DNA from: Trypanosoma brucei
Taxonomy: Eukaryota
Direction of reading: 5' to 3'
Length of the DNA stretch: 64,000 bases
Assembly: GCA_000002445.1 (NCBI GenBank)
Contig: CM000208.1
Span: 3,776,001-3,840,000 of the forward strand
Translations under genes and position numbers: made by a program
Shown here: in pieces, positions 20,179 through 38,089 of the stretch
How positions within the stretch are numbered: the first letter of the stretch is position 1
Layout of the letters: the number at the start of each line of letters is the position of its first letter
The notes under the pieces: model-generated
What the model saw: only the letters and a program-made list of their open reading frames with translations
The model's database searches: none
Told to the model about the DNA's origin: nothing

Positions 20179-21560
20179 AATAGCTGAGGGGGGAAGTGGT
20201 CGATATTTAGTTTTTGGGAACCGAACGACAAATTTTAAGTTGGACTGCAGCTCTGTACTGTCGTACGGCACGAGAATTGTCAACATCATCCACCCTCATG
20301 TGTAGTAGGTGAATAGAGCGCAATGCGAAGTCAGCTTCCCCACTAAGGTGTTTGGACTTTTGAAGCATAGGCGGAGCGACAGCATCTGCGGATAATTTTT
20401 GGTTCAGTCTGCTTCGCTTTTGTGGAAGCAGCAACTTTTACGTCCCTTTAATCCACAAATGCACTCTGCGTACTCCGCGCGTTTGTGCTTTTGGGTTTGG
20501 ATCGTAGCGGCATTGCTGTTTCCTAGCGTTTCCTTACAAACGTCCTTCTGGAAAGCTCAACAGCCTTTCCAACTGGGTGTAAGGATTTTCCTCCTTTCCT
20601 GTAAACATAAAGACTCTATGGGAGTCAACCGCCTAATTTTATTTTGTTATGCTTTCATCTTCTTTTTTTTTTGTTTTTGACATAGACTTGTTTATTTTCT
20701 TCATTCCCCTTTTTCTTTTCCGTTGCTCCCCATCACAGCAAAGAAAAAAAATAAAAGGGCTGCAGGGCAGCAACATTTGGTCGCTGCGTCCCAGACAGGA
20801 CAAAGTTAATTAACAACTCAGTCTTCGTGAGGCTGGGGTGGCCACTTGGTTTCTCGTCCAGGCGAGTATAAGGCTGGTCGCAGGCAATTAGTCGAGTGGA
20901 ATCACCACGTTGTTCAATTTACCGGAAATTTTAAGGGAATATATTACGTTTGTATAGTTAAACGTTTATGCGATAAATATATGTATTGGTTTTTTTTATA
21001 TTGATTTATGGTGCTGTTTACCATATTTGGCTTTTTGTTTTTCCAGCTCCTTCCTTCTTTTGCCATGTGATTGGGTTAAAACTAGTGGGGCGGTGGGGTG
21101 TGCGCCTTCAGCGTGATTGGTGCTGATATGAAAAAGGAGAAAATGTAACTTCTGTCGATCAGGGGAAGAAAGAAAGGAGGGCAAACAAGTTTGAAGTGTG
21201 AGTGGTACATTTTTGCTCGTGTGGGTTCCGTGCGGGTTGCGTCCCCGCTGACGCTAACGTTGCGTGTCACTACTCGCTCTTCACACCTTCAATTTGTTTA
21301 CTTAACATTATGTTTGGCTGCGTGTGTGGATTTCGTCGAAAGAGAGAAGAAACAAAGCAAAAGGGAGAAAGGGCGGTCACAATCAGAAAGAAAAAAAAGG
21401 AGAAATTTGATAACTAAGTACTCGGTGCCTGAACCAACTGAAGGGGGAAGGTAGAGAAGGAAAAACCGAGAGAAGTGCTTCAACAAAAAAAAACGGAGGA
21501 GCAGAGAGCACGACGACACTTGTTTTGCAGGCCCATATAGCGCAAAAGTCCACGACAAAT

Positions 21561-22778
21561 ATGGAGGAGCGGACGCTGCAGTACCTGGATGGGATTATTA
21601 TTACCCTCAGGCAGGCGGGAAGCTATGGGACGGCGGAAATATTGGAGCGGGCGAGAGAAGAATTAGCTGGCGCTCAGTGGTGTGAAATGACAGACAGCCT
21701 GCTGCAGGCCGTGCACGATCCCATCGTTCTCAAATCAGCTTACGAACTGCATGAAAATGTGCTGAGAACAGTACGCATGGAAATGTCGCCTGTAGCGTAC
21801 GTAAAGTTACTGCATACAGTCTGTTTTAGTCCAAATGTTTCATTGCAAATGGCGCTAGAACTCGTTGATAACGCAGTAACTTCATTATCAATAAACCCCT
21901 CTGAACAGGGGGGGAATGCGGCCCGCTGTATCCGTGCGCTTTTGCTCCTCGATAGGCAGAACGGCTGTGATCATATCATTCCGCTGGAGGCGGCTGCGCA
22001 AGAAGCACACAACATTCTTGATTCTGTGGAAAATTTTATTCACTCGAAGCAGATGCATGAAGTGGACCCTGTCCTCACGGCGCTTCACTGTCAAGCCAGG
22101 GGAAAGGATTACAAGATGCGGCGGCAGTATACACAATACTACAAGAACGCTTTCGAAACCGTAAAGAGTGCGGAGCGCGCTGAGATGGCCATTCTTGAGA
22201 GTGATATGATGACACTTGCCTATGATACAGCCATAGCAGCGCTTCTGTCGGAGGAAATACACAACTTTGGGAAGTTTCTCAATTATCAGTGTTTTACCGA
22301 ACGGTTAGCCGCGAGCGCTGAGCACCTCTGGATCCTCGAGTGGCTTCGTATCTGCAACGACGGGAAGGTTGAGGAATTCGAGCAGTATGCTGAGACGCAC
22401 CGCAGCCACATTGAGTCGAACCCCGTACTGACTCGTGCACTCGCATCTGTCGTGCACAAAGTGCGACTGATGGCGCTTCTGCATCTTGTCTTCTACACAC
22501 CATTCAATGAACGAACCTTCGCCTTTGACCTGATTGCACGGCGGTGCGCAGTGCCCCTAAAGCGTGTGGAACCACTTCTTCTTGCGGCGCTGGCCCAGGG
22601 AATTATCATCGGCAAGATCGACGGCCTTTCGGAGGAAGTGCATATTACGTGGGTGGAGCCGCGAGTTTTGAGCCTGCAGGAGGTAAAGGAGCTGGCTGAG
22701 CACGTGTCGCACTGGAAAAAAAAGGTTATGGCACTCTCTCAATCAGTGATGGAGATTACGCAGCAAACTCCCAACTAG
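21561..22778 (+). CDS. PCI-domain protein (eIF3 / CSN / proteasome-lid subunit-like)
   Basis: The C-terminal ~100 aa (FDLIARRCAVPLKRVEPLLLAALAQGIIIGKIDGLSEEVHITWVEPRVLSLQEVKELAEHVSHWKKKV) fit the winged-helix end of a PCI domain. They are preceded by a helical-repeat region. The track ORF starts at a TTG at 21525; the first ATG is 21561. The exact subunit cannot be assigned without a search. Confidence 0.55.
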   Translation: MEERTLQYLDGIIITLRQAGSYGTAEILERAREELAGAQWCEMTDSLLQAVHDPIVLKSAYELHENVLRTVRMEMSPVAYVKLLHTVCFSPNVSLQMALELVDNAVTSLSINPSEQGGNAARCIRALLLLDRQNGCDHIIPLEAAAQEAHNILDSVENFIHSKQMHEVDPVLTALHCQARGKDYKMRRQYTQYYKNAFETVKSAERAEMAILESDMMTLAYDTAIAALLSEEIHNFGKFLNYQCFTERLAASAEHLWILEWLRICNDGKVEEFEQYAETHRSHIESNPVLTRALASVVHKVRLMALLHLVFYTPFNERTFAFDLIARRCAVPLKRVEPLLLAALAQGIIIGKIDGLSEEVHITWVEPRVLSLQEVKELAEHVSHWKKKVMALSQSVMEITQQTPN

Positions 22779-23759
22779 CGTTTCCTTTCCCTTTTTTCTC
22801 TGTTGTGTTTGAGGGGAGAAGGAGTAATCCGGAGAACAAGCAAAGACGAAATAGTCATGGGTGAAAATAGAGAAGGATGAGCGAATGCAAAAACGGGAGG
22901 GGAAAGAAAGGGCGGTGTACGAGCCCTTCATGTCTGCACATATCTCAAGAAAGGGGGGAAACTGACGGGGGTTGCGAAGAAAGATATGGTTCTGAAGGGT
23001 TTTTGTTAGTGCCGCTGTTAGTTGCAACCTCGCGGAGGCGGGGAAACGTGGCAGCTCTCATATAATATAACTCCGACGGTCACCCGTCGTTTCCTCTTGC
23101 TCCTTTCCTACCTTCACTGTCGCTGTTACGCCCTCACTATTTCTGTTGCCTCTACGTCTGCCCCGTTTTTGCCTGTTTACTTAAAGAGAAGGTGGGGGAT
23201 TGTTTGCCGCAGTGTGTGTGTGGGGAGGGGCACTTCTATGACACCACACCCTATCCGTACTTTCTTTTCCTTCCGTGTTCCACTGGCGGAGACCCGTGAT
23301 GTCTCTGGGAGCGCATTAAGGGGTGACGAGTTTGGAATATCTCGCATTACTGCGCGGTGACGACTCAAATGTTCTGGTTTAAGGCAGAACGAAGCCTGTG
23401 GCTGCACTGAGTGTAGACCGTCCTACTGTCTTTTGTTTTACTTCCGTCTTTCTCCCACTCATTTCACCTTTTTAATTCGTGTGCTTGTGTGTATCTGGTT
23501 GCCAGTAGTAGGCATACAGAACAGTGCAATAGCGAGGAAAGTGCTGTAACGAAGTGCAGGGCTGCTTTGTTCTTTGTCACAGGAGCCCCGCAGCCCTTCG
23601 CACCTAACCGTATAAATACGTTAGTAACCACATAACAAGTACAAAACTAGATAGACGTTGGGGTGGGAGTAAACGGAGAGAAAAGGGAAGAAACATAGAT
23701 CACTTCACCATTCCACCTCACTCATTCACAATTTCAGCTGCGGTTTCTCACCCAAACCT

Positions 23760-26700
23760 ATGACAAGTGCTGCCGCACTCCGACCCCCTGTGACACTGCT
23801 GTGGGATGCCAGGGTCAGTTGCTCCACACAGGAGAAGGGGAAGCAAGACGGTAGTTCGCCGGTGTTGGATTCGGAGCCCCATATTATCTCGCTGGGTGAG
23901 CTAGATGTGCTCAGCTGCAGCGATGAGGAATTAGAACTTCACCTTAATGGCATCAGGGATCTTGTACAAAGCAGACCGGACTCATGGCTGAAAAAGAAAG
24001 GTGGAAAGGGATTCTCAAAAAGGCAATTGGCCCTCATACAGGATGAGTTAGTGCACTACCAGGGGGTGCTGAAGCAAGCAAATGAAATACTTAGTTGGCT
24101 ACTCTGTCGGCTTAACGACCGCATAAGTGTGCTGCGCCGTGATGAGTCCATGTTGCGCGAGTATTACGAGAGCCTCGAACGTGGAACGGGAATTGATGAG
24201 GATTACAACATGCACAAGAAAGACAAATTTCACCGGAGATTGCGGGAGTCAAAGCGGAGGGCGCCCATCAAACGATATTCGAAGGAGCTAGAATTTTTGA
24301 CTTCGCGCCACACGCAGTTAGTGCAGCTGTTGACCACAGTCGAGTCAGAAGAACGCGCTTACAATGTGCGCGGGGCGGACGAGGACACCAGCCGGCGAAG
24401 TAAATTGTTGAGCCCCGAAGATACGAAAATTGAGGAAATATATAGGGACGCCGCCGCCGCTGGTGGGGGTAAAGCAGTTACACTAATGCGCATGCGTGCA
24501 CTGCAACCACTGATCAGAAAAGAACAGGAACTTCGCTTTGTGCCACCGCTCTTAGCGTCAGATGTCCACTCACGTTTACGGAAGGAAATTATACTACCCT
24601 TCTCCGTCCGCGTACTGGCGCTAAAAATTGAAAAGGGTAATATCATTGGTGACAAATTTGTCCAGTGGTATATTAACACAGTGGTGGATCCCCTGACAAT
24701 GGCCCAATTAGTAGAGCTTGTGCCGCGCGAGCACCTCGTGACAACTACAGTCCGGCTCGCGAAGGTCTGCGATGCGTACCCGCAGTCGCGGCGTGCCCAA
24801 CCCCTTCCGGATATATCACACGTCGTTTTGGAGTCCGTTTCTGAAGGTCGTATTGATGCCTTTGCGTCGCTCGTTCTTTCCACCTCAGCGACGTGCACGC
24901 GCGCTCTTCGGGACAAGGATGAAGAAGCCATTATTCTTTTCTCTGCTGTAATAACCGCGCAGGTGGAAGTTATACGGCGTATTATATCAGTTGGGTTCTA
25001 CAACACTAATGCCCTCAATGTCTGGCTATTCTTAAATCCCAACAACAAGTGTAACTACTATAAGACGTACGTACACGAAACAACGAACAATGTAAAGAAA
25101 TATCTAAGCTCGCTGTCACGCAGCAGTCGTGATCACCTAAGTACGGAGGGCGCAGAAGAAGATGTTATCGAAATGGCACAAATCACCCTGACACAAAAAT
25201 GGGAGGAGTGGGACAGCTCGCTTCTCACCGGCGGGTTGGGCGCCAGTCTGCGACACTTCTTAAATAACCGCCTCCTATGGAAAAGGAATACATCAACCCC
25301 AAAACCTCGCAGCAGTGCAAGTAGAGGAGGGAGGGACAGTGCAGCAGAGGGGTGGGAAAAGGGGCACGGGATGGACGTCAGTCTCAGCGTCAGTTTTACT
25401 CCCTCCCTTCTGAACAAACTTACTTCCGGGGACCCAACGTTCTCGTCACTGCTTTCGAGAAGGAAATTTGATCGCCTGCCGATGTCCGCCCCAAAGTGCG
25501 CCGTTCTCCCTGCTACCAGCACACCGATGTTACGTCGTGTAGATCCGTGGGGTTACACACCTCTTGAGACAACTGGAGCACATCTGCTGCTTGTTGGGGA
25601 CACGTCTACAGTCAATGCGCACGTGGTGCGGCTCCCAGCACGGCGGATGACCAAGTGGAATGAGCACGTCCCTAACGAGCCACAGGATGTGCGGATGCAA
25701 CGAGATCAAATGCAAACTTTAATAGACTCACATGGCACTCGGTTTTACTATGAAGTGCACATCTCGTTATTCTTCTTGATTAACGATGTGCCCCTGAGCC
25801 CTTCACCGTTTGAGTACACAGCCGCAGCCTCGGAAAATGCGACAAGTGAAGGTCTACCTTCTCAACAGCGGTGTACGGCTTACGTTGGTTGGTGTTCTGA
25901 GGAGTGCGTGGCGGCTGCTGACGGTTACTCCTCAAACCAGCCGCTTGGCAGTGACACCTCTTCTATAGGTATCTCGTTCGACGTCGTACACAGACATAGG
26001 TTGGACGAGCTCACAGAGGAAGTTATTCTGCGACCCATGAAACACGCAGTGGGGTGCACCAACACCATCGAGGTAGCTAATGATGGTGGAGAAATGCAAT
26101 CGGTTTCATTGATTCGGATGTACTTTCAAAGCTGGAACCGGACTCCCGATGGCGCGGATGAGAATGGTTCTGTATCGGATGATGCCATCTCCTTCGGAGA
26201 GAGCAGAACATCGTGGGTGTATTCCGGATTAGGAACCTTCAGTTCCGAAGGCTTTTCCTTGGAAAAACCCCGACAGCCAAGTGAGACCGTCGTCCCTTTT
26301 GTGAAATTAGTCGGAGAAGGAAATGAAGAGAGCGCGACCGAAGAGGACGATTCTGACGACATACCTCGTGTAATTCGCAATGTCTTTAGGTTGGCAGGTG
26401 TACCGGTATACAAGTCGCAATCAATTGTTATTGGGTGCCACGTTGACATGACAACACGATCAGCATCCTACACTGTTAATGGGGTAAGTCTTGGGACAGT
26501 TTTCACAGCACTTCCTTCAGCAACAGGACTCCGACCAGCGGTGAGCTTGCAGGTTTCCGAGGAAATGAAGTCGATCCTCCAAGGTGTGAATCAGAGTGAT
26601 TCCACGGTCGTCCGTTTCGTTTTTGACAGACACTTACTACTTTCGCACCACATGGAGTTGTTGGAACCTGGCGCAGTAGAAATCGAGTCGACCACCCGCA

Positions 26701-29700
26701 GCAGCTCGTTGCAGGATATTAAACCCCTGGGGGGCTCAGAAGAGGTTGAATTAATCCCGGGAATGGGCATTACCAAAGATGCGCTATTATTCGACGGAGA
26801 TATGATGCAGTGCGCGATGGTAAGACTTCTAACGGGAGCAGAAAGGGGTTCGTGCAGTGACGCCTTTGACGACGAAGAACTGATGAAAGGTGGTAGGGAA
26901 AGCATATCGCTTGGGACAGCGCTGAGAGTGAGGACTTCGTCGATACGGGCACTACTCAACAACCCGACGCCCAATGAAGACCTCCTGTTCTTTCCTCCAG
27001 TACTGTTAAGGCGCCGCAGTGACGAATCAGAAAAAGTAGCGAGTGGTATAACAATCATCCCTGAAGATGCGATGTTAGCCCCACTGTGTGCCGCGCTTGC
27101 CATGCGACAACGCATCGCCGCCTATCAGATCGTCATCCACCCGTTGTTGGACTTTGAAACGAGTAATCACATAATGTTGCAACAACGGCGCATGGCAGTA
27201 CTTGCATGTTCAACACTGGGATACGAAGAGGTGTTGTATGTTCTTCTCCAACGAATGGCAATACATGAGGTGGTCGCCCTGTTTTCAATCAAAGCACCGG
27301 CGGCTCCGCAAGATTCGCAGCCGAAGTTAAATAGACGCTTTGCCATAATACCCGCTAATAGCGCCAACAAAATAACGTCCGCAAGCACATTACAATACTT
27401 CCATTATACACCACTTCACTGCGCACTTCTCGAGGGACATACCAACTGCGCACATCTGTTGCTTTTTTACCTCAACCGCGCGCTTGGCAAAGAGTACTTG
27501 CGGCATGCCCTTAACGTCTTTTCTCGCGGTGGTGAAACGGCACTGGTGATTTCCTCTCGCGTCGGCTACACCGACATCGCAAAGCGGCTGCTTGCATTGG
27601 GTGCCTCGCCATTCTTGTTCGATCGCGTCACGAGATCAAATTGTCTAGAGCTCGCCTGCGCGGGCGGTAGTGAAGAGATTGCGTTAGCGCTTTTGGACAC
27701 CCCAGACTTCCACTCACCCGTTGCGGTCAATCAAGCCGGCTCAGCCCCTCCACTTTGCTGGTGTGCACTGAAAAACATCAGTGCCCTGGTGCGTCCGCTG
27801 CTTGAAAACGGTGCTGACCCCAATGTTACACTAGATGGACCAACACCTCTTTTTTTGGCTGTAATGTTCGAGAGTCAGGAAGTGGCATTGGAGCTTCTTC
27901 GGTATTGTGAATCAACAGCGAACAAAACCGCGCCAAGTGCGAATGCTTACCGGGCTGCGTTGCGAAAGCGCTTTGGTGCACCCACTGCACGGCGCCCAGG
28001 CGGGGAGGAGCTGGGTGATGAAGGTCCTCTGGCAATGCTGGATGTGGATGCGATGGACCCCCGAACCCAATGCACCGCTTTGCACTTGGCTTGCGAGAAT
28101 GGACAGTTGGCGGTGGTGCGTGCCCTCATTGCAGGGGGTGCGCAGTTGAATGTACAGAACAAAGCAAGCTTCGCAACTCCGTTACACTTAGCGGTCGAGA
28201 GTGGTCACGAAAAGGTTGCACTCGATATAGTTGAGTACGCGAAGAACAAGCTGCGACGGGGTCATGAGGTATTGGATATTAACGCCATTGACAAATCGGG
28301 GGATACGGTTCTACACGCCGCAGCGCGGAAGGGAATGCTCTCTGTCATCGAGTATATTATGTCTCAGTTCAGTGAGGAGGAGGTGGCTCGAATCCACAAA
28401 AACCATGATTTCTCGAAGCGCCCCAGTCCTGCAAATGTCCTGGCAGTCAACCGCCAGGGACACACACCACTTCTCGCGGCCATCCACGCGCATCAGGAAG
28501 AGGCCGCACAACTTATTGCATCGCTTGTGCCCGATTACTTGGCAAACCCCGGAGGTGCTATTGTGAGTGGGACGTGTGTGGCGATCTCAGAAAGTGACGT
28601 AGAGGGACTCGATAACGTGACACTATTTCTTCTTTCCTCACCCAATTATGTTGCAACGGAAGACTTTCGAAAAAGATTCTTTGATCATTACAATGCGAAA
28701 CGTGCGGAGATGGATTTAAGTGAAGACTATCCCAATTCGGAGGAAGTCCGAAGGCCACGTGTGGCTCTCCATGTCAATAAACGTCACAGCAAGAGGCGTG
28801 GTCGCCGTGTTCGTGTTGTGCCCTCCTTCAGGAAGCAGAGAATGTCTTTCCGGCTCAGCATATCCAGCATGTATGGCGTAGGAAGGAGTCGTGGCTCAAC
28901 AAGCGCCGTCGCAAGGGACGTCAGGACCGAAGACTCGCGTTCCAGGTGGGTTGTGGCAAATGAGCATTTAGCCCGTTCGAAGATGACCCGAATAGCACCA
29001 AGACGGTGCAGTATGTTTGTGAGAATGTTGCTTGCAAAGGGATATCGGAACCCCACCACGCGGAAGACTATACAGTTTCTGAAGCAAGGGTTTGCCATTG
29101 ACGAACTGTATGCCATGCTAGATGTAATCTCGTTTGAGACCCTACGGAAAGCACAGAGTCACTGGTCAATGCAATACACAGACTCCATTATCAGCTTTCT
29201 TCACATGTTTGGGGGCGTGCACGTCGCTCCGATCGATGCAGTTCTTTTTATCAGAAAACTGTTCTACTCTCATGAGTTGACGGAGAACGTGGACAAGGAG
29301 CAGGTTGAAGAGTCAAAGCAAAAGCTCATGAACATGCGGCCCCTGTGCCGCGACCTTGTAAACATGGTTCGAACCCGTGGAACTCTTACAGATTGCGTGG
29401 AGGACATGCGTCAAATGGTTTTGCAGTCTGGTCTTAGTGGTGACAAACTCACAGAGGAACTTACGTCACCATTTGGTTACACTGTGCTTCAGTTAGCCGC
29501 AACATTGTCATTGGCCAACGTCTGTACTTACCTCATTAATGAATGCCACATGAGTCCACTATTTGTTCCCGCTGGCCACTCAGACGAAAGCACATCCAAT
29601 GCTACAACAACCCGGGCACGGAGTGACGACGAAGACAGCGAGCAGAAATGGCTTCTGTCACCCTTTCGACTTGCTGTACGCACCCTTAACATAGAGGTGA

Positions 29701-32700
29701 TAACCGCCTTTCTTGCTTGTGATTACAACTCTTTTAGCATACATGACATGCTGGACCATAAAGAACTACCGATTGCCGACCCATTTCAGAGAACGGCGAT
29801 CCAGGAACTTCTGTCCAAGCCAACGGATACACTCTCCGATGAAGCAATTGGGTCCATCGTTACCGTTTTGAGGCTCCTTCTGAGGCATGGGGTGTCCGTG
29901 CAGGGTAATTTTGACGCCCTAGGGAATGATGCGTGGATGATGGCTGTTTGTTCGTCCCCAGGGAAGGGTATCGCCTTGCAAGTCTTTCTGGAGGAGCATG
30001 TGGAACTGGGCGAAGAGGATATTGCAAGTGAAACTGGTGAAAGTTTCACTCAACCGGCATTCAGCGACGGGAACAGGGACGAGGAGGAGGAAGAGGAGGA
30101 TGAGGAAAGGGAACAGCACCCACAGACTGAGTGTAGCAGTGAAGCAGACGGAGGGAGATCTGAAGATTTTCTGACCGAACCGTCAGCTTCGATGGTATCA
30201 GAAACTGCGACCATGAACAGTTCTCTAAGTTTAGTCTTGACTATGCGTCGCAAACCCGGTGAAGCTCTTGCGTCCTTCGGGTACGTACGGCGACGTGTTG
30301 GTAGGCGTCGTGGTCAAAGGTCGAGTGAATACTACGCCTCGCTCATTTTTGCATGTGCGGAAAATAACCCACAGCTCCTTGCTAAGTTCATAACTGAATA
30401 TCCGCATGTCCTTTCAACGGATGTCATTAATTCTAAGACGGGGGAAACGCTTTTGATGTACCTGCTACGCCGAGCATCGGATCTGTATGTTTTGGAATGT
30501 GGGTTGCGTAATCTGTTCCTATGGGAGGGTAAGACCGATGCTCCTACACCCTCACCAGATTCTGCCGGGGCGTTACTCTACGACACCCCTCAGACGCACC
30601 CCACCGTTGAATCAGGCAGCACGCCTTACCGCGACCCCCTTACAATCCCGGGCGTTCGGATTCTTCTTGGAGTTGTGGATCAGCTCCTGCGAACATTCAG
30701 TTTCAACAATCTGCATTACGAGTGCAATGGGCAAACCGCCCTAACACTAGCCGCGCGGCTCAGTTGTAATCCGGCTGTTCGACACATTGTAATACAGGGG
30801 TGCCAACAAGCGGGGAGTGACACAACAACGGTTGTGCTTAGTTCGCCGTCGAAAAGCTCGACCAAGGTCTTAGGGTGGGGGACGCTAAGCGGAGGCGACA
30901 GGAGCCCCGCACGAATGAGTAGCCCTTGCAATGAGGGACTCCAGAACGAATTGCGCATATTTAATTGTTGGATGTCGCTCTGCAATTGTTTGTATTACAC
31001 CGAAGAAGATATGGAGGCTTTGTTTGCAGTTCTACGTCACCTGCCGAGTAGCATAAGGGTGTCATTCCTGGGAATGGTGTACCCTAACTTGCACCCGATG
31101 GTTGCCCTGCGTGTAGCAGTTCTGTACACTAATGCTATGAAACGTATTCTTATCAAGCCTATGGTTTCAAGTACTTTTTGGTGCAGCGTATTCTATGCCC
31201 AGTTTGTTGGACGACTGGAAGAGGAAGTATTGAGGAATGGCAAGTGGAACACACTTCTCAGTATACTACTACCGTGTGCCTCCGCGATTCCCATATACCT
31301 CTTGAAATCAATGCCATCATTTCCAGAGACGTCCCCCGATGACCTTTTGCCCGGCACTTCACTGGCGAGCGTCACGCCCACGGAACAAAGTACCGAGAGA
31401 ATAGCAAGAGGGAGTGTGTTGCAGCAGCCGTCAAACTGGAGAACGATAATCAACGGGACAGAGCAGTACATCAAACAAATTGCTACAGCAGCTGTATGTG
31501 CTGTGGCACCGGTGCATCTTACCTCTGGTACACAAAGCTATAAGAACCTTCCTGCAGTTCGGCAAAGTTTTCTTTCGGAGATGGCCTCACACTTTCACGA
31601 AGTGCTCGAACTGGCAGTGCGCTTTGACAACTGTGCTCTACTTAGTGCACTTATAAATATGCTTCCAGCTGATCTTTGCCACTGTCTAAAGTTCGAGTGG
31701 CGTTGTTTGATGGAAAAGAACCACCTTCCAGTGATTGCGGTGACTGCAGGGAGCGTTAACGTGCTAAAGTACCTTGAACGCATTCCAGAAGCGGGGCGGT
31801 ATGTGACCTATGACCGTTATGACCGCATCGACACGGATACTGGCATGCCTGATGACTATGCTGCAAATGAACACAATGCACAGCAGGATGCAACTCAGCC
31901 TCGTCGGCGCTCGATCAGTCTACCTTCCATCGCGTTCCTAGGGAGTAACGAAAGGCCCCAAAACACCTTAAGCCCCCACAAGGGCTTAGATAAGGCAGGC
32001 GATGCTTCGCCGAGTGAGAAGAAGCAAAGCGAGGGTGGACAATTGAAGGGATCCAACAGTGGAACGGCGGCGGGTAATAGTCAAGAAGCCGGTGACACCA
32101 CAAAGGAAGGGACTCTCCACAGCTGGGATGTGATATCTGCTGTTCATCAGCGAAAGGCAGTTGGGGCAGTGACGTGGGGTGTAGGCGCGGCCGCCCGTCC
32201 GGTGTCCATGCACAAACAATCCGTCTCAAAAGAATCATCAAACACGACGATGAAGCTATCTCGGGGAAGACAGCACGGTGGCGCTACGAGGCGCCGTAGT
32301 GCGGGCACCGGCAAATCGTTTAACGTCACTCCAGCCTCATCAGCACCCGATTCGTGGCGTAGCGGTGCAGATGGAAAGCCGAAGTCATCGCCATCGAAAC
32401 GGAGACTGTCACTGGAGGGGGGGCCGGGAACGGGCGGAACTAGTTTCACTTCGCCCTCGAGAGGTATGAGGCTTTTCTCGATAACCCCTGAGGTGCGGGA
32501 GCAGCCACGTTACTTCGCGTACTATCTCTGTGATTGGGCTCTTCATACCACCTTACTGCTGCACGCACCATATCCGTCAATGAGAATGATAGAGACCCTC
32601 CTGCACCTCATGGACAATCGGGCTCCCCTCAGTGCATCCGCGATACACATGTTCCTCGCGGCCTCGCGCCCAATGAATCACTGGTCCTCTGGCGAAGGTG

Positions 32701-34142
32701 AACATATCACACTTAACTACACCACGCCCACACACGGTGATACGATTCTGCATCTTCTGGTGCAGAACCACCAGATACAATTGGCACGGTACTTCCTCGC
32801 CGCGGCGCACTGCTTCTTCGCCTGCTACCAATACGACCAGCCGTCTACCGTTCCGCCGAACTTCCCGGTGAGCAGCGAGAGGGGGACCTGTGGAGACACA
32901 GTAGACAGTGACTCTAGATATCCTGCCGTGTTCTTGCGAAGCATGCTGCGCACAAATAAACATGGGCTGACAGCTTTTGATTATGCCCGGGGGATGATGG
33001 TGTCGGTACTACAAGAATACGGATGTGTTCCACCAACCTACCGCCCCAACCCCCGTGAGTTTTGCCACACCGTTCGGCTCGTTGATGGCATGAGTACCTT
33101 CCAAAGAGTTCCTCAGCTTCTTCTTGTCTCCCCAGACTTTGTGAAACTGCGTGACAACGTGCGCACAAATACAAAGCAGCAAGACCCGTCGGTCAAACCA
33201 GTTATCACAGACGCCACGATACAACGGAATCAAGCAGCTGCACTCCGCATCACACGGTCACATATCCTCACCACCATCCTTGCAGATGATGTTAGCTTGC
33301 TGCACCTTGGCCTCTGTGCTGCGGATGACGAGCTCGTGCTTGAAAATATTGAACGTAGAAGAAGAAAAAGAGCAGCTGAACTTTACCATCCTGCTGCTGC
33401 TTCAGGACGAAGCATGTCAAGTCCGCGAGGGCCCTCAATACGGGACCAGCAAGGTGGCAACCAAAGGTTAACTCGCCTTCCGCACATCGGCGGCGCAGCA
33501 GAAACTGCTGCTCGGACGAGTACCCCGGCCAGTGGTGGTCGGAAGGTTGACAAGGAAATGCACAGCATGATGAAACTCATTGACTCTCTTCAAAAACGTG
33601 GTCTTGTTGTATTCCCGCTGCTACTACCCGCGACAGAAGATGACAAGAAACGCACGGCAGCAATACATAGCAATGATGGATTAGCCCTCCAACTGGCCAT
33701 GACACCTATGACCGTAGCACTCCAACAAGGTGCAGTTAAGCTCGAGGTGGCGACTGTAACTTCCCCCAACCCCACACAACAACAGCAGCAACAACACCGC
33801 AGTCCTGTAAGTGCTACCGAGCCCTTGGACAGCATGTACAACAATGACGTGCAGGACGCGACAATATCACCACGCTCGCTACAGCCTTACACGTTCCCAC
33901 CGAAAGACACCCCCAGACAGCACCCTGCCAATATGCTGGAGGCATGGTTAGCAAGCAGCAAAATGCAAAAGGGAGTGCACACCAAAGTAAGCCAGGAGCT
34001 ACATCAGAATACTCAGGCGATAATAAGAGTCATGGAAAAAGGAAACTGTTCTCGGTCAGCAAAACAAATCGGACTTACTGTGTCAATGCCGTACGAAATA
34101 CGCAACGAAGAAAGCACCACTAAAGAGTCATTCAGAAAATAA
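23760..34142 (+). CDS. Giant (3460 aa) SPRY-domain and ankyrin-repeat protein
   Basis: Uninterrupted 10.4-kb ORF from an ATG. Around aa ~880-900 there is a SPRY/B30.2-like segment (VIGCHVDMTTRSASYTVNGVSLGTVFTALPSATGLRPAVSLQ). Around aa ~1180-1600 there are multiple ankyrin repeats (TALHLACENGQLAVVRALIAGGAQLNVQN; TPLHLAVESGHEKVALDIV; GDTVLHAAARKGMLSVIEYI; GHTPLLAAIHAHQEEAAQLI). More ankyrin-like repeats occur near the C-terminus (GDTILHLLVQNHQIQLARYFL). Confidence 0.85.
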   Translation: MTSAAALRPPVTLLWDARVSCSTQEKGKQDGSSPVLDSEPHIISLGELDVLSCSDEELELHLNGIRDLVQSRPDSWLKKKGGKGFSKRQLALIQDELVHYQGVLKQANEILSWLLCRLNDRISVLRRDESMLREYYESLERGTGIDEDYNMHKKDKFHRRLRESKRRAPIKRYSKELEFLTSRHTQLVQLLTTVESEERAYNVRGADEDTSRRSKLLSPEDTKIEEIYRDAAAAGGGKAVTLMRMRALQPLIRKEQELRFVPPLLASDVHSRLRKEIILPFSVRVLALKIEKGNIIGDKFVQWYINTVVDPLTMAQLVELVPREHLVTTTVRLAKVCDAYPQSRRAQPLPDISHVVLESVSEGRIDAFASLVLSTSATCTRALRDKDEEAIILFSAVITAQVEVIRRIISVGFYNTNALNVWLFLNPNNKCNYYKTYVHETTNNVKKYLSSLSRSSRDHLSTEGAEEDVIEMAQITLTQKWEEWDSSLLTGGLGASLRHFLNNRLLWKRNTSTPKPRSSASRGGRDSAAEGWEKGHGMDVSLSVSFTPSLLNKLTSGDPTFSSLLSRRKFDRLPMSAPKCAVLPATSTPMLRRVDPWGYTPLETTGAHLLLVGDTSTVNAHVVRLPARRMTKWNEHVPNEPQDVRMQRDQMQTLIDSHGTRFYYEVHISLFFLINDVPLSPSPFEYTAAASENATSEGLPSQQRCTAYVGWCSEECVAAADGYSSNQPLGSDTSSIGISFDVVHRHRLDELTEEVILRPMKHAVGCTNTIEVANDGGEMQSVSLIRMYFQSWNRTPDGADENGSVSDDAISFGESRTSWVYSGLGTFSSEGFSLEKPRQPSETVVPFVKLVGEGNEESATEEDDSDDIPRVIRNVFRLAGVPVYKSQSIVIGCHVDMTTRSASYTVNGVSLGTVFTALPSATGLRPAVSLQVSEEMKSILQGVNQSDSTVVRFVFDRHLLLSHHMELLEPGAVEIESTTRSSSLQDIKPLGGSEEVELIPGMGITKDALLFDGDMMQCAMVRLLTGAERGSCSDAFDDEELMKGGRESISLGTALRVRTSSIRALLNNPTPNEDLLFFPPVLLRRRSDESEKVASGITIIPEDAMLAPLCAALAMRQRIAAYQIVIHPLLDFETSNHIMLQQRRMAVLACSTLGYEEVLYVLLQRMAIHEVVALFSIKAPAAPQDSQPKLNRRFAIIPANSANKITSASTLQYFHYTPLHCALLEGHTNCAHLLLFYLNRALGKEYLRHALNVFSRGGETALVISSRVGYTDIAKRLLALGASPFLFDRVTRSNCLELACAGGSEEIALALLDTPDFHSPVAVNQAGSAPPLCWCALKNISALVRPLLENGADPNVTLDGPTPLFLAVMFESQEVALELLRYCESTANKTAPSANAYRAALRKRFGAPTARRPGGEELGDEGPLAMLDVDAMDPRTQCTALHLACENGQLAVVRALIAGGAQLNVQNKASFATPLHLAVESGHEKVALDIVEYAKNKLRRGHEVLDINAIDKSGDTVLHAAARKGMLSVIEYIMSQFSEEEVARIHKNHDFSKRPSPANVLAVNRQGHTPLLAAIHAHQEEAAQLIASLVPDYLANPGGAIVSGTCVAISESDVEGLDNVTLFLLSSPNYVATEDFRKRFFDHYNAKRAEMDLSEDYPNSEEVRRPRVALHVNKRHSKRRGRRVRVVPSFRKQRMSFRLSISSMYGVGRSRGSTSAVARDVRTEDSRSRWVVANEHLARSKMTRIAPRRCSMFVRMLLAKGYRNPTTRKTIQFLKQGFAIDELYAMLDVISFETLRKAQSHWSMQYTDSIISFLHMFGGVHVAPIDAVLFIRKLFYSHELTENVDKEQVEESKQKLMNMRPLCRDLVNMVRTRGTLTDCVEDMRQMVLQSGLSGDKLTEELTSPFGYTVLQLAATLSLANVCTYLINECHMSPLFVPAGHSDESTSNATTTRARSDDEDSEQKWLLSPFRLAVRTLNIEVITAFLACDYNSFSIHDMLDHKELPIADPFQRTAIQELLSKPTDTLSDEAIGSIVTVLRLLLRHGVSVQGNFDALGNDAWMMAVCSSPGKGIALQVFLEEHVELGEEDIASETGESFTQPAFSDGNRDEEEEEEDEEREQHPQTECSSEADGGRSEDFLTEPSASMVSETATMNSSLSLVLTMRRKPGEALASFGYVRRRVGRRRGQRSSEYYASLIFACAENNPQLLAKFITEYPHVLSTDVINSKTGETLLMYLLRRASDLYVLECGLRNLFLWEGKTDAPTPSPDSAGALLYDTPQTHPTVESGSTPYRDPLTIPGVRILLGVVDQLLRTFSFNNLHYECNGQTALTLAARLSCNPAVRHIVIQGCQQAGSDTTTVVLSSPSKSSTKVLGWGTLSGGDRSPARMSSPCNEGLQNELRIFNCWMSLCNCLYYTEEDMEALFAVLRHLPSSIRVSFLGMVYPNLHPMVALRVAVLYTNAMKRILIKPMVSSTFWCSVFYAQFVGRLEEEVLRNGKWNTLLSILLPCASAIPIYLLKSMPSFPETSPDDLLPGTSLASVTPTEQSTERIARGSVLQQPSNWRTIINGTEQYIKQIATAAVCAVAPVHLTSGTQSYKNLPAVRQSFLSEMASHFHEVLELAVRFDNCALLSALINMLPADLCHCLKFEWRCLMEKNHLPVIAVTAGSVNVLKYLERIPEAGRYVTYDRYDRIDTDTGMPDDYAANEHNAQQDATQPRRRSISLPSIAFLGSNERPQNTLSPHKGLDKAGDASPSEKKQSEGGQLKGSNSGTAAGNSQEAGDTTKEGTLHSWDVISAVHQRKAVGAVTWGVGAAARPVSMHKQSVSKESSNTTMKLSRGRQHGGATRRRSAGTGKSFNVTPASSAPDSWRSGADGKPKSSPSKRRLSLEGGPGTGGTSFTSPSRGMRLFSITPEVREQPRYFAYYLCDWALHTTLLLHAPYPSMRMIETLLHLMDNRAPLSASAIHMFLAASRPMNHWSSGEGEHITLNYTTPTHGDTILHLLVQNHQIQLARYFLAAAHCFFACYQYDQPSTVPPNFPVSSERGTCGDTVDSDSRYPAVFLRSMLRTNKHGLTAFDYARGMMVSVLQEYGCVPPTYRPNPREFCHTVRLVDGMSTFQRVPQLLLVSPDFVKLRDNVRTNTKQQDPSVKPVITDATIQRNQAAALRITRSHILTTILADDVSLLHLGLCAADDELVLENIERRRRKRAAELYHPAAASGRSMSSPRGPSIRDQQGGNQRLTRLPHIGGAAETAARTSTPASGGRKVDKEMHSMMKLIDSLQKRGLVVFPLLLPATEDDKKRTAAIHSNDGLALQLAMTPMTVALQQGAVKLEVATVTSPNPTQQQQQQHRSPVSATEPLDSMYNNDVQDATISPRSLQPYTFPPKDTPRQHPANMLEAWLASSKMQKGVHTKVSQELHQNTQAIIRVMEKGNCSRSAKQIGLTVSMPYEIRNEESTTKESFRK

Positions 34143-34351
34143 ATGTTCAAAACACACAAAAAAATGTAAACAAGCACTTACTAATTATCAAAATTAAAAA
34201 TCACATTTTCACAATAGAAACAAGTAACGGAAAAAAATGCTGAAAAATAAAAAATATACACCCAAACCTACAAAAACACTTTATCACTCTACAACAGACA
34301 GGAAGAAAAAAGACACCTAGTTTGTAAGGAATGTTGTGGCCTGGAAACACT

Positions 34352-34465
34352 GTCGCGCATGATGTGCTCAACTGGAATTACCATCTGAACGCGGGATACC
34401 GCAAGTCGATGAATTAATGCTACGTGCATTACCTCCGCTGTTACTCGTATCACTGACACCGCGAC
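34352..34465 (+). ncRNA. Candidate box C/D snoRNA (array copy 1)
   Basis: GTCGCGc-ATGATGT(C box)-19 nt-CTGA(D')-19 nt-GATGAA(C')-~40 nt-CTGA(D)-cacCGCGAC. The 6-bp terminal stem GTCGCG/CGCGAC brackets the C and D boxes, as in canonical C/D snoRNAs. No rRNA target complementarity could be checked. Confidence 0.4.
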
Positions 34466-35559
34466 TGTTTCCTTTGTTTTGAGGCCCTCAGGGAAGCGCG
34501 TGATGACATACAAAGTTGTTTGCACATTTTCCGACACACCGTGAGCGAGTTACAATATTACAAGAACACCATCTGAATTTTTGTCGACTCTACCCCTTCC
34601 TCCTTATTGGTGATGGCACAATGCATCTGTTCCCTTCTTTTATTTGGACCCTCTTCTTCCTACCCACTTACATACATGCACACACGTCTCTGTGTAAATG
34701 TATGCAGATATGTATACACACACACACTCTCTCTCTCTCCCGAATGCCGAGGCCTTTCTGTCTGTTCCCGGTCGGTGATTAGCAGTGCGTCTTCCACCTA
34801 ACGACCCTTGATGATTATGATACGATGCCTGGTCAACAGAACTATACTACACCAAATTTAGTAAATGAGACCACAGTGCAGGCAGAGGCTGGCAATCCTC
34901 GTCCGCCAGCAGCCGCCCCGGGCAGGATGGCGCCCGTGTCCCTGGCGTGACGTCTAATCGGTGCGGCGAGATGTGCTGACACTTTTGCGTCGCGTGATGA
35001 GGTGCAGAAGGCATGTCGCCGCTACGGCGGTGGCTCGCGTAGCCGTCTGGCTGTGCGCGTACTGTGAGCTACTGTACTCCATGGGTGAACAATCTCTGAT
35101 GACGTGTCACAGCGGGAGCAGTGTCGCTATGCGTTCCCGTCAGTAATACGGGCTAACGGTACGAAGCACGTGCGAGAGGTAAGTGGAAATCCGCTGCCTG
35201 TGAACACAGCAGGTACACATGATGCACACAATTCAATACTCACTCTGAACATCACTTGTCAGGAGGAATGTGATAACATGCACCACCAGCTGATCACATC
35301 CACGTGCATACATGCACACATGCCCTATCCCGCTTCCTTCACTTTTTCACACAGTCTGTGTGTCTGTGTGTCTGTGTGTGTGTGTGTACACCCGCATGTT
35401 TGTATACTTGTTTGTGACCATGCCAATGGACCCTTAATTACTCTATTTTTTTTTTCTCGTGGGCGGCTTTGAGACTGAGTGTGCGTCCTTAATACGCGAA
35501 CAACAAGCAAGGCCTCGTTGTTTGCTAGTTTGTAAGGAATGTTGTGGCCTGGAAACACT

Positions 35560-35673
35560 GTCGCGCATGATGTGCTCAACTGGAATTACCATCTGAACGC
35601 GGGATACCGCAAGTCGATGAATTAATGCTACGTGCATTACCTCCGCTGTTACTCGTATCACTGACACCGCGAC
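35560..35673 (+). ncRNA. Candidate box C/D snoRNA (array copy 2)
   Basis: Same element as copy 1: C box 35567-35573, D' 35593-35596, C' ~35616-35621, D 35661-35664, terminal stem 35560-35565 / 35668-35673. Confidence 0.4.
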
Positions 35674-36767
35674 TGTTTCCTTTGTTTTGAGGCCCTCAGG
35701 GAAGCGCGTGATGACATACAAAGTTGTTTGCACATTTTCCGACACACCGTGAGCGAGTTACAATATTACAAGAACACCATCTGAATTTTTGTCGACTCTA
35801 CCCCTTCCTCCTTATTGGTGATGGCACAATGCATCTGTTCCCTTCTTTTATTTGGACCCTCTTCTTCCTACCCACTTACATACATGCACACACGTCTCTG
35901 TGTAAATGTATGCAGATATGTATACACACACACACTCTCTCTCTCTCCCGAATGCCGAGGCCTTTCTGTCTGTTCCCGGTCGGTGATTAGCAGTGCGTCT
36001 TCCACCTAACGACCCTTGATGATTATGATACGATGCCTGGTCAACAGAACTATACTACACCAAATTTAGTAAATGAGACCACAGTGCAGGCAGAGGCTGG
36101 CAATCCTCGTCCGCCAGCAGCCGCCCCGGGCAGGATGGCGCCCGTGTCCCTGGCGTGACGTCTAATCGGTGCGGCGAGATGTGCTGACACTTTTGCGTCG
36201 CGTGATGAGGTGCAGAAGGCATGTCGCCGCTACGGCGGTGGCTCGCGTAGCCGTCTGGCTGTGCGCGTACTGTGAGCTACTGTACTCCATGGGTGAACAA
36301 TCTCTGATGACGTGTCACAGCGGGAGCAGTGTCGCTATGCGTTCCCGTCAGTAATACGGGCTAACGGTACGAAGCACGTGCGAGAGGTAAGTGGAAATCC
36401 GCTGCCTGTGAACACAGCAGGTACACATGATGCACACAATTCAATACTCACTCTGAACATCACTTGTCAGGAGGAATGTGATAACATGCACCACCAGCTG
36501 ATCACATCCACGTGCATACATGCACACATGCCCTATCCCGCTTCCTTCACTTTTTCACACAGTCTGTGTGTCTGTGTGTCTGTGTGTGTGTGTGTACACC
36601 CGCATGTTTGTATACTTGTTTGTGACCATGCCAATGGACCCTTAATTACTCTATTTTTTTTTTCTCGTGGGCGGCTTTGAGACTGAGTGTGCGTCCTTAA
36701 TACGCGAACAACAAGCAAGGCCTCGTTGTTTGCTAGTTTGTAAGGAATGTTGTGGCCTGGAAACACT

Positions 36768-36881
36768 GTCGCGCATGATGTGCTCAACTGGAATTACCAT
36801 CTGAACGCGGGATACCGCAAGTCGATGAATTAATGCTACGTGCATTACCTCCGCTGTTACTCGTATCACTGACACCGCGAC
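36768..36881 (+). ncRNA. Candidate box C/D snoRNA (array copy 3)
   Basis: Identical copy, offset +1208 bp. Confidence 0.4.
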
Positions 36882-37975
36882 TGTTTCCTTTGTTTTGAGG
36901 CCCTCAGGGAAGCGCGTGATGACATACAAAGTTGTTTGCACATTATCCGACACACCGTGAGCGAGTTACAATATTACAAGAACACCATCTGAATTTTTGT
37001 CGACTCTACCCCTTCCTCCTTATTGGTGATGGCACAATGCATCTGTTCCCTTCTTTTATTTGGACCCTCTTCTTCCTACCCACTTACATACATGCACACA
37101 CGTCTCTGTGTAAATGTATGCAGATATGTATACACACACACACTCTCTCTCTCTCCCGAATGCCGAGGCCTTTCTGTCTGTTCCCGGTCGGTGATTAGCA
37201 GTGCGTCTTCCACCTAACGACCCTTGATGATTATGATACGATGCCTGGTCAACAGAACTATACTACACCAAATTTAGTAAATGAGACCACAGTGCAGGCA
37301 GAGGCTGGCAATCCTCGTCCGCCAGCAGCCGCCCCGGGCAGGATGGCGCCCGTGTCCTTGGCGTGACGTCTAATCGGTGCGGCGAGATGTGCTGACACTT
37401 TTGCGTCGCGTGATGAGGTGCAGAAGGCATGTCGCCGCTACGGCGGTGGCTCGCGTAGCCGTCTGGCTGTGCGCGTACTGTGAGCTACTGTACTCCATGG
37501 GTGAACAATCTCTGATGACGTGTCACAGCGGGAGCAGTGTCGCTATGCGTTCCCGTCAGTAATACGGGCTAACGGTACGAAGCACGTGCGAGAGGTAAGT
37601 GGAAATCCGCTGCCTGTGAACACAGCAGGTACACATGATGCACACAATTCAATACTCACTCTGAACATCACTTGTCAGGAGGAATGTGATAACATGCACC
37701 ACCAGCTGATCACATCCACGTGCATACATGCACACATGCCCTATCCCGCTTCCTTCACTTTTTCACACAGTCTGTGTGTCTGTGTGTCTGTGTGTGTGTG
37801 TGTACACCTGCATGTTTGTATACTTGTTTGTGACCATGCCAATGGACCCTTAATTACTCTATTTTTTTTTTCTCGTGGGCGGCTTTGAGACTGAGTGTGC
37901 GTCCTTAATACGCGAACAACAAGCAAGGCCTCGTTGTTTGCTAGTTTGTAAGGAATGTTGTGGCCTGGAAACACT

Positions 37976-38089
37976 GTCGCGCATGATGTGCTCAACTGGA
38001 ATTACCATCTGAACGCGGGATACCGCAAGTCGATGAATTAATGCTACGTGCATTACCTCCGCTGTTACTCGTATCACTGACACCGCGAC
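37976..38089 (+). ncRNA. Candidate box C/D snoRNA (array copy 4)
   Basis: Identical copy, offset +2416 bp. A fifth copy (39184-39236) is truncated after the D' box, where the array ends. Confidence 0.4.

What the first reader, a model, noticed from the sequence alone, without database searches (positions are those of the whole stretch)
23760..34142. Giant 3460-aa protein combining a SPRY/B30.2-like domain with two ankyrin-repeat blocks
SPRY is a protein-interaction module. Pairing it with ankyrin repeats in a >380-kDa non-repetitive protein is unusual. The long N-terminal and middle regions have no recognisable motif. A 10-kb intron-less ORF with ordinary, non-repeat composition is very likely a real, large scaffold protein. 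Its function is not obvious from sequence.
Basis: partly seen in the sequence, partly recalled or inferred. Interest (0 to 1): 0.55.

Follow-up and report, generated by a model that had tools for sequence, protein, structure and literature searches.

The report
Giant trypanosome SPRY–ankyrin scaffold protein
This is an intact Trypanosoma brucei gene for a 3460-residue protein built from a SPRY domain, a long ankyrin-repeat array and further helical modules; it is conserved across trypanosomatids and already annotated with these domains, but its function is unstudied.

Summary
Window 23760-34142 (+) is one uninterrupted 3460-codon ORF with no tandem or internal repeats.

**Identity.** The protein is identical to T. 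brucei TREU927 XP_828043.1 / UniProt Q387U1 on chromosome 10. Public records already call it 'SPRY domain-containing protein' or 'SPRY domain/Ankyrin repeats (3 copies), putative'.

**Domains.**
- The ankyrin array (aa ~1107-1630, Ank_2 E = 7e-39) is split in two by a 48-residue insert.
- New here: an N-terminal antiparallel coiled-coil hairpin, a conserved helical domain (aa 266-511), and degenerate ankyrin-like units in the 'motif-less' middle and C-terminal parts.
- A PPxY motif is identical in all 11 aligned trypanosomatid orthologues.

**Distribution.** The N-terminal 1150 residues found 14 matches among 1.84 billion representative proteins. All named ones are trypanosomatids.

**Function.** No catalytic, membrane, RING, HECT, SOCS-box, ZU5 or CTLH element was found. 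The best reading is a lineage-restricted, multivalent protein-interaction scaffold. This is an inference, with no experimental data. It is an ordinary, already annotated gene of modest interest.

The parts
23760..34142 (+). Complete ORF, 3460 aa plus stop; identical to T. brucei TREU927 XP_828043.1 / Q387U1
24018..24380 (+). aa 87-207: two helices of about 55 residues (87-145 and 156-207) joined by a short loop, predicted as an antiparallel coiled-coil hairpin
24555..25292 (+). aa 266-511: conserved all-helical domain; aa 250-450 are the segment best retained in distant orthologues. No family could be assigned.
   Evidence: The profile finds nothing significant in PDB sequences (best E = 0.08, an ankyrin-type designed repeat protein). 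Pfam scan of the consensus sequence finds nothing.
25527..26630 (+). aa 590-957: SPRY beta-sandwich with SPRY-like motifs FYYEVHIS (662-669), YVGWCSEE (708-715), SIGISFD (735-741), VIGCHVD...NGVSLG...LRPAVSL (890-930)
26037..26414 (+). aa ~760-885: variable, partly acidic insertion inside the SPRY domain; low conservation, with stretches of low pLDDT (793-839, 853-871)
27078..27911 (+). aa 1107-1384: ankyrin sub-block A, two degenerate units followed by about five clear repeats
   Evidence: Pfam; hhalign (aa 1108-1165 ankyrin-like, probability 73%); repeat cores located
27912..28055 (+). aa 1385-1432: non-ankyrin insert that splits the array
   Evidence: sequence
28056..28649 (+). aa 1433-1630: ankyrin sub-block B, about five repeats; holds the best Pfam stretch (1428-1493)
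28707..29009 (+). aa 1650-1750: basic, Ser/Arg-rich, poorly conserved linker (for example KRHSKRRGRRVRV)
29007..31859 (+). aa 1750-2700: conserved islands, probably helical (not modelled), with degenerate ankyrin-like units at about 1905-2055 and 2323-2344; the rest is unassigned
   Evidence: hhalign; sub-threshold Ank_2 E = 3.4e-4; Pfam ankyrin hits in orthologues P0014 and P0015 mapped onto T. brucei positions; consensus scan
31860..32459 (+). aa 2700-2900: Ser/Thr/Pro/Gly-rich, poorly conserved, probably disordered linker
32565..33047 (+). aa 2936-3096: C-terminal ankyrin-like helical module around a ~30-residue low-confidence insert; aa 3051-3100 is the most conserved 50-aa window in the protein
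   Evidence: AF2 (core pLDDT 80-91); Foldseek top hits are mostly ankyrin domains but none reaches E <= 1e-3; hhalign probability 90%; conservation
33030..33041 (+). aa 3091-3094: PPTY, the only PPxY in the protein, inside GCVPP[TS]Y; present in all 11 aligned trypanosomatid orthologues
   Evidence: lies in a stretch of falling model confidence just after the last helix of the module
33288..33338 (+). aa 3177-3193: conserved motif DVSLLHLGLCxxDDELV, function unknown

Best explanation
The ORF is a functional single-copy gene of Trypanosoma brucei (chromosome 10, between the proteasome-lid subunit RPN9 gene and the snoRNA cluster TB10Cs3). It encodes a family-specific, non-enzymatic giant scaffold or adaptor protein. 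Proposed mechanism (inferred): an N-terminal antiparallel coiled-coil hairpin mediates self-association or anchoring. One SPRY beta-sandwich, an ankyrin solenoid of about 10-12 repeats, and at least three smaller ankyrin-like modules each present a separate protein-binding surface. Poorly conserved, probably disordered linkers join these modules, so one polypeptide could hold several partners together over a long distance. A PPxY motif present in all 11 aligned trypanosomatid orthologues may add a docking site for a WW-domain protein. Shown here: gene integrity, domain identities, and conservation along the whole length in trypanosomatids. Inferred: the scaffold role, oligomerisation through the hairpin, and any partner.
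Against: There are no expression, localisation, interaction or phenotype data. Ten literature searches found nothing on this gene. About half of the protein (aa 266-511, 1750-1900, 2100-2320, 2390-2700, 3100-3460) has no assigned fold, and aa 1190-2890 was never modelled, so an unrecognised enzymatic or nucleic-acid-binding domain is not excluded. The AF2 models are of moderate quality (mean pLDDT 63.5 and 54.2) and rest on only 9-12 sequences. Pfam does not detect SPRY in the Phytomonas orthologue or in two longer unnamed orthologues (P0007, P0010), although the motifs align.
Confidence: 0.6

Rival explanations
1. It is a substrate-recruiting subunit or adaptor of a ubiquitin-ligase system. 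SPRY and ankyrin modules would bind substrates, as they do in SPSB, ASB, FEM1, CTLH/GID and HERC1 proteins. The conserved PPxY would recruit a WW-domain HECT ligase.
For: The closest solved SPRY structures include ubiquitin-ligase substrate receptors (RanBP9/10, Gid1, TRIM67/9, HERC1, SPSB). PP[TS]Y is present in all 11 aligned trypanosomatid orthologues, in a stretch of falling model confidence. The gene lies next to a proteasome-lid subunit gene, which is weak evidence because trypanosomatid polycistrons are not generally understood to group genes by function.
Against: Pfam finds no SOCS box, F-box, RING, B-box, HECT, LisH, CTLH or CRA element in the protein, in its segments at E <= 10, or in the orthologues. 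The conserved SLLHLGLC motif does not fit the BC-box spacing (my reading of the sequence). The two most divergent orthologues lack the PPxY. Equally close SPRY matches, such as ASH2L, DDX1 and RyR, have nothing to do with ubiquitin.
Confidence: 0.15
2. It is a cytoskeleton, flagellum or membrane-skeleton linker comparable to giant ankyrins or myospryn (CMYA5), tethering specific complexes to a trypanosomatid structure.
For: The size, the long ankyrin solenoid, the coiled-coil hairpin and the extended linkers resemble giant structural adaptors. The family appears restricted to trypanosomatids and close relatives, as are many of their cytoskeletal proteins (general knowledge).
Against: No ZU5, UPA, death, spectrin-binding, FN3 or microtubule-binding domain is detected. 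The protein itself is not among solved PDB chains, including the T. brucei axoneme structures: a PDB sequence search returned only generic ankyrin proteins. There are no localisation data.
Confidence: 0.2
3. It is a pseudogene or a chance or mis-assembled ORF.
For: None found.
Against: A stop-free run of 3460 codons (about 1e-72 by chance), full-length conservation across trypanosomatid genera, the same length in four Trypanozoon records, only synonymous differences, and conserved synteny.
Confidence: 0.01

Closest known systems
RanBP9/RanBP10 (RanBPM) and yeast Gid1, SPRY domains of the CTLH/GID E3 ligase
   Different: No LisH, CTLH or CRA domains follow the SPRY. The trypanosome SPRY carries a variable insertion of about 125 residues, and the protein is far longer than the 729-residue RanBP9 chain, with an ankyrin array.
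ASH2L SPRY domain (COMPASS/MLL complexes)
   Different: No PHD-WH domain or SDI motif was detected, and sequence identity is 9-17%. Nothing suggests a chromatin role.
Giant ankyrins (ankyrin-B/G) and other long ankyrin solenoids such as NOMPC and tankyrase
   Same: A long array of canonical 33-residue ankyrin repeats (PDB sequence matches to ankyrin-1/2 at E = 6e-24 and NOMPC at 4e-26), set in a very large protein with long poorly conserved, compositionally biased linkers.
   Different: It lacks the ZU5-UPA-death-domain supermodule, TRP transmembrane segments and PARP/SAM domains. It has about 10-12 repeats rather than 24-29, split by an insert, and it has a SPRY domain.
Myospryn (CMYA5) and TRIM-like coiled-coil plus SPRY proteins
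   Different: No RING, B-box or FN3 domain is present. In this protein a helical domain of about 250 residues lies between the coiled coil and the SPRY, and the SPRY sits in the N-terminal third rather than at the C-terminus.
Public annotation of the same protein (UniProt Q387U1; T. equiperdum SCU69405.1)
   Same: Identical sequence, named 'SPRY domain-containing protein' and 'SPRY domain/Ankyrin repeats (3 copies), putative'.
   Different: Those records give no function. They do not describe the coiled-coil hairpin, the extra ankyrin-like modules or the PPxY motif.

Membership tests
SPRY domain (Pfam PF00622) | Sequence match above Pfam's gathering score | tested here: met
   36.4 bits on the whole protein and 40.4 bits on a segment, against a cutoff of 26.3. 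Also above cutoff in T. cruzi marinkellei, P0014 and P0015. Not detected in Phytomonas, P0007 or P0010.
SPRY domain (Pfam PF00622) | Bent beta-sandwich fold superimposable on solved SPRY domains | tested here: met
Ankyrin repeat (PF00023 / PF12796) | Tandem 33-residue helix-turn-helix repeats matching the profile above cutoff | tested here: met
   Ank_2 132.7 bits (cutoff 27.3) and Ank 86.8-106.3 bits with up to 7 stretches. PDB sequence search gives E = 6e-32 to designed ankyrin repeat proteins.
TRIM / B30.2 proteins | RING and B-box zinc-binding domains N-terminal to the coiled coil | tested here: not met
   No RING or B-box hit in the whole protein or in aa 1-600 at E <= 10. I saw no Cys/His cluster in aa 1-90.
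Canonical ankyrins (ANK1-3) | ZU5-ZU5-UPA supermodule and a death domain after the repeat array | tested here: not met
   No such Pfam hits in any segment at E <= 10.
SOCS-box substrate receptors (SPSB, ASB) | C-terminal SOCS box (BC box plus Cul box) | tested here: not met
   No SOCS_box hit in any segment at E <= 10, in the consensus sequences, or (at E <= 0.01-0.05) in the orthologues. The SLLHLGLC motif does not fit the [STP]LxxxC spacing (sequence).
RanBP9/10-Gid1 (CTLH complex) | LisH, CTLH and CRA domains following the SPRY | tested here: not met
   No Pfam hits. In the AF2 model aa 960-1100 is mostly low-confidence, with two short helices.
Ryanodine / IP3 receptor | RIH and RyR domains and a C-terminal six-helix channel region | tested here: not met
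   No Pfam hits. The highest 19-residue Kyte-Doolittle window scores 1.70, most top-scoring windows contain charged residues, and there is no cluster of hydrophobic helices.
HECT or RING E3 ligases with SPRY (HERC1, RNF123) | A HECT or RING catalytic domain | tested here: not met
   No hit in the protein, its segments, the orthologues or the consensus sequences.
Trypanosomatid orthologue group of Q387U1 | Full-length collinear similarity and conserved gene neighbourhood | tested here: met
   phmmer E = 0 to 1e-14 to 12 representatives of 3331-5782 aa. The alignment shows conservation along the whole length. RPN9 lies upstream on the same strand in T. brucei and in the loci of P0014 and P0015.

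The most novel reading that the evidence does not exclude
The protein is a trypanosomatid-specific giant adaptor that couples a WW-domain HECT ubiquitin ligase, docked on the conserved PPxY at aa 3091-3094, to substrates captured by its SPRY and multiple ankyrin modules. This would be a one-polypeptide equivalent of the separate SPSB and ASB receptor families of animals, with the N-terminal coiled-coil hairpin positioning it at a parasite-specific structure.
Probability: 0.08. Interest if true: 0.5.

Novelty: already known. Interest (0 to 1): 0.25.

Why it matters
The practical gain is a better map of a 380-kDa 'hypothetical' protein that is conserved in the trypanosomatid genera sampled here (Trypanosoma, Leishmania, Phytomonas). 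No non-kinetoplastid sequence matched its N-terminal third in a library of 1.84 billion representative proteins. The map gives defined modules (coiled-coil hairpin, split SPRY, two-part ankyrin array, three further ankyrin-like modules, a conserved PPxY) and so concrete handles for truncation, tagging and interaction experiments. If it organises a parasite-specific complex it would interest trypanosome cell biology. Nothing found here points to a new kind of mechanism.

Tried and rejected
- **Word-indexed homologue search.** The whole protein timed out. The aa 1-1150 and aa 590-960 queries returned no hits, although the protein and its orthologues are in the collection. I treat this as a tool limitation, not evidence of absence. 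The exhaustive HMMER search replaced it.
- **Literature.** All ten searches found no paper on this gene or its Leishmania neighbour: SPRY + ankyrin + Trypanosoma/Leishmania, Q387U1, CstF50, RPN9, and guessed gene IDs around Tb927.10.128xx/131xx and LmjF.19.11xx. My guessed T. brucei IDs were wrong: one search returned telomere- and nucleotide-sugar-related papers. From memory, those IDs are TRF and UGP. I could not establish the TriTrypDB gene ID.
- **Membrane or channel idea (ankyrin plus transmembrane helices, as in TRP channels).** Rejected: only one borderline hydrophobic window (aa 2497-2515, score 1.69) and no cluster.
- **SOCS or BC-box reading of the conserved SLLHLGLC motif.** Rejected on spacing and on the lack of any Pfam hit.
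- **Paralogy with the neighbouring 3452-aa ORF (7512-17870).** Rejected: no BLASTP similarity.
- **Internal duplication of the unassigned regions.** No significant hhalign hits between regions.
- **Profiles against PDB sequences.** The N-terminal helical domain and the C-terminal region found nothing significant.
- **Foldseek against AFDB50.** The library was not available.

Full report
**Observation.** Window 23760-34142 on the + strand is one ORF of 3460 codons. It begins at the first ATG after an in-frame stop and has no internal stop. Under uniform codon usage the chance of such a run is about 1e-72. Tandem Repeats Finder reports nothing in the interval. A self-BLASTP gives only the identity hit. 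Composition is ordinary, about 51% G+C. All other long ORFs in the window lie on the same strand, which fits a kinetoplastid polycistron. Pyrimidine-rich tracts followed by AG dinucleotides lie 250-650 nt upstream of the ATG. These are compatible with a trans-splice acceptor, though that is only an inference.

**Identity of the locus.** The exact protein sequence is on record as EAN78931.1 / XP_828043.1 / UniProt Q387U1 of Trypanosoma brucei brucei TREU927, on a 4.05-Mb contig, and as SCU69405.1 of T. equiperdum. The names given are 'hypothetical protein, conserved', 'SPRY domain-containing protein' and 'SPRY domain/Ankyrin repeats (3 copies), putative'.
- T. b. gambiense and a second T. equiperdum record carry versions of 3459 and 3458 aa.
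- Window 20760-34348 is 99.956% identical to the T. equiperdum contig. The four differences inside the ORF are all synonymous third-position changes.
- Upstream lie a mitochondrial carrier gene and the proteasome-lid subunit PSD13/RPN9.
- Immediately downstream lie four 1208-bp tandem copies of a snoRNA cluster (TBR12, TBR6, TBR4, TB10Cs3H2, TBR2, TB10Cs3H1). The names place this cluster on T. brucei chromosome 10. A CstF50-like WD40 gene follows.

- **SPRY by sequence.** It passes Pfam's curated cutoff (36.4 bits on the whole protein, 40.4 bits on a segment, cutoff 26.3). A phmmer search of the region against PDB sequences finds RanBP9/10 and ryanodine-receptor SPRY domains through the motif 'VIGC.VD....ASYTVNG.SLG..F..LP...L.PAVSL'.
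- **SPRY is split.** A variable, partly acidic insertion of about 125 residues (aa ~760-885) sits between the 'GISFD' strand region and the 'VIGC' strand.
- **Ankyrin repeats.** These are unambiguous (Ank_2 E = 7e-39; PDB sequence hits to designed ankyrin proteins, ankyrin-1/2 and NOMPC). The array runs from about aa 1107 to 1630 and is interrupted by a 48-residue non-ankyrin insert at 1385-1432, giving two sub-blocks of about five clear repeats each.

**What the 'motif-less' parts are.**
- **Helical domain, aa 266-511.** It follows the hairpin, and aa 250-450 are the segment best retained in distant orthologues. Its profile finds nothing significant in PDB sequences; the best hit, E = 0.08, is an ankyrin-type designed repeat protein. 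It remains unassigned.
- **Extra ankyrin-like units.** A profile-profile comparison of each conserved island with the protein's own ankyrin block gives ankyrin-like matches at aa 1108-1165 (73%), 1908-2015 (83%), 2324-2352 (70%) and 2991-3073 (90%).
- **Independent support for those units.** T. brucei has a sub-threshold Ank_2 hit at about aa 1902-1928 (E = 3.4e-4). Pfam ankyrin matches in the divergent orthologues P0015 (aa 2201-2228) and P0014 (aa 1906-1942) map to T. brucei aa 2323-2344 and 2007-2055. Consensus sequences give weak ankyrin hits.
- **C-terminal module.** A second AF2 model (aa 2890-3260; mean pLDDT 54.2, but 80-91 in the core at aa 2936-3025 and 3056-3096) has Foldseek neighbours that are nearly all ankyrin domains (IkB, gankyrin, RNase L, tankyrase). 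None reaches E <= 1e-3.
- **Still dark.** Aa 1750-1900, 2100-2320, 2390-2700 and 3100-3460 are conserved but unassigned. Pfam finds nothing there in T. brucei, in five orthologues or in consensus sequences.
- **Linkers.** Two stretches are poorly conserved and compositionally biased: a basic Ser/Arg-rich stretch at aa 1650-1750 and a Ser/Thr/Pro/Gly-rich stretch at aa 2700-2900.
- **Negatives.** There is no convincing transmembrane helix and no internal duplication beyond the ankyrin-like units.

**Distribution.**
- An exhaustive HMMER search with aa 1-1150 against 1.84 billion representative proteins returned only 14 matches at E <= 1e-3.
- The named matches are T. b. gambiense, T. vivax (48% identity), T. 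cruzi marinkellei (43%), Leishmania enriettii (5782 aa) and Phytomonas EM1 (4823 aa). The rest come from unnamed read-archive assemblies or an unnamed eukaryote protein collection.
- All full-length members are collinear. The trypanosomes and two divergent sequences have 3331-3444 residues. Leishmania, Phytomonas and the other long unnamed members have 4500-5800, because of longer linkers and insertions.
- The two most divergent members (P0014 and P0015, 22-23% identity over the N-terminal part) sit in tightly packed same-strand gene arrays, with RPN9 five genes upstream. This supports orthology and a kinetoplastid-type genome, but I could not name the organisms.
- No non-kinetoplastid protein matched this part, not even through the SPRY domain. 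I did not search the C-terminal two thirds at that scale.

**Mechanism.** No catalytic, nucleic-acid-binding, membrane or ubiquitin-ligase domain is detectable. Every assigned module is of a type known for protein-protein recognition or oligomerisation. I therefore take the protein to be a multivalent scaffold or adaptor (confidence 0.6).
- The coiled-coil hairpin would dimerise or anchor it.
- The SPRY domain, the two-part ankyrin solenoid and the smaller ankyrin-like modules would bind different partners.
- The linkers would give reach.
- Domain identities and conservation are shown. The scaffold role and every partner are inferred.

Two more specific versions remain open:
- **A ubiquitin-ligase adaptor (0.15).** Many of the nearest SPRY structures are E3 substrate receptors. 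The single PPxY motif, 'GCVPP[TS]Y' at aa 3091-3094, is present in all 11 aligned trypanosomatid orthologues, in a stretch of falling model confidence. Against it, no SOCS-box, F-box, RING, HECT or CTLH element exists.
- **A cytoskeletal or membrane-skeleton linker in the manner of giant ankyrins or myospryn (0.2).** The size and architecture suggest this. Against it, no ZU5/UPA/death, FN3 or known filament-binding domain is found.
- A pseudogene or artefact is excluded.

**Comparison with known families.**
- The protein contains a bona fide SPRY domain and bona fide ankyrin repeats; both membership tests are met.
- In each of the following families a defining element was looked for and not found, so the protein is not a member: TRIM proteins, canonical ankyrins, SPSB/ASB receptors, RanBP9/Gid1-type CTLH subunits, ryanodine receptors, and HERC1/RNF123-type ligases. 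Details are in the membership table.
- It works most like the generic class of giant modular adaptors.

**Novelty and verdict.** The gene, its size and its SPRY-plus-ankyrin content are already in public annotation, so the finding as stated is already known. The ten literature searches available found no functional study. This analysis adds a finer module map and a few testable handles: the hairpin, the split SPRY, the extra ankyrin-like modules, the conserved PPxY, and restriction of the family to trypanosomatids and close relatives. Interest is modest (0.25): a conserved, parasite-lineage-specific giant protein of unknown role, with nothing that a specialist would find surprising.

Noticed in passing
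window 34290-39200 (+): Four tandem copies (period 1208 bp) of a snoRNA gene cluster directly downstream of the ORF. Each copy holds the C/D snoRNAs TBR12, TBR6, TBR4 and TBR2 and the H/ACA-like TB10Cs3H2 and TB10Cs3H1, all well above their Rfam gathering scores. This is the T. brucei chromosome-10 cluster TB10Cs3.
   Followed up: partly
window 7512-17870 (+): A second giant ORF (3452 aa) with no Pfam hit. Its N-terminal part is made of near-identical Ser/Pro-rich tandem repeats of about 70 residues. It is unrelated to the SPRY-ankyrin protein by BLASTP.
   Followed up: partly
window 33030-33041 (aa 3091-3094): The only PPxY motif in the protein, inside 'GCVPP[TS]Y'. It is present in all 11 aligned trypanosomatid orthologues and absent from the two most divergent ones. 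It lies just after the last helix of the C-terminal ankyrin-like module. It is a candidate WW-domain docking site, but this is untested.
   Followed up: partly
window 33288-33338 (aa 3177-3193): The motif DVSLLHLGLCxxDDELV is strongly conserved in trypanosomatid orthologues and has no known match. It does not fit BC-box spacing.
   Followed up: partly
window 28707-29009 (aa 1650-1750): A basic Arg/Ser-rich linker (for example NKRHSKRRGRRVRV) after the ankyrin array. Its sequence is poorly conserved, but the family consensus is also basic here. It could be a nuclear-localisation or phospho-regulated segment. Not examined.
   Followed up: no
L002 1-6000 and L003 1-6000: In the two most divergent orthologue loci the gene order is RPN9, unknown, PQQ_2-like beta-propeller, TatD DNase, unknown, giant gene, all on one strand with short spacers. 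In T. brucei RPN9 is the immediate upstream neighbour, so four genes were lost or moved. The source organisms (SRR7085473, SRR7249135) were not identified.
   Followed up: partly
window 41835-47081 (+) and 4-5661 (+): Two further long ORFs (1748 aa and 1885 aa). Each has only a marginal Pfam hit: FabA-like at 23.8 bits, barely above its cutoff of 23, and CPCFC at 21.8 bits, below its cutoff of 25. Not examined further.
   Followed up: no
tool behaviour (versus 30, 37, 38): The word-indexed homologue search returned no hits for two query segments of this protein, although the protein itself and 40-50% identical orthologues are in the same collection. A negative result from that tool cannot be trusted for this protein.
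   Followed up: yes
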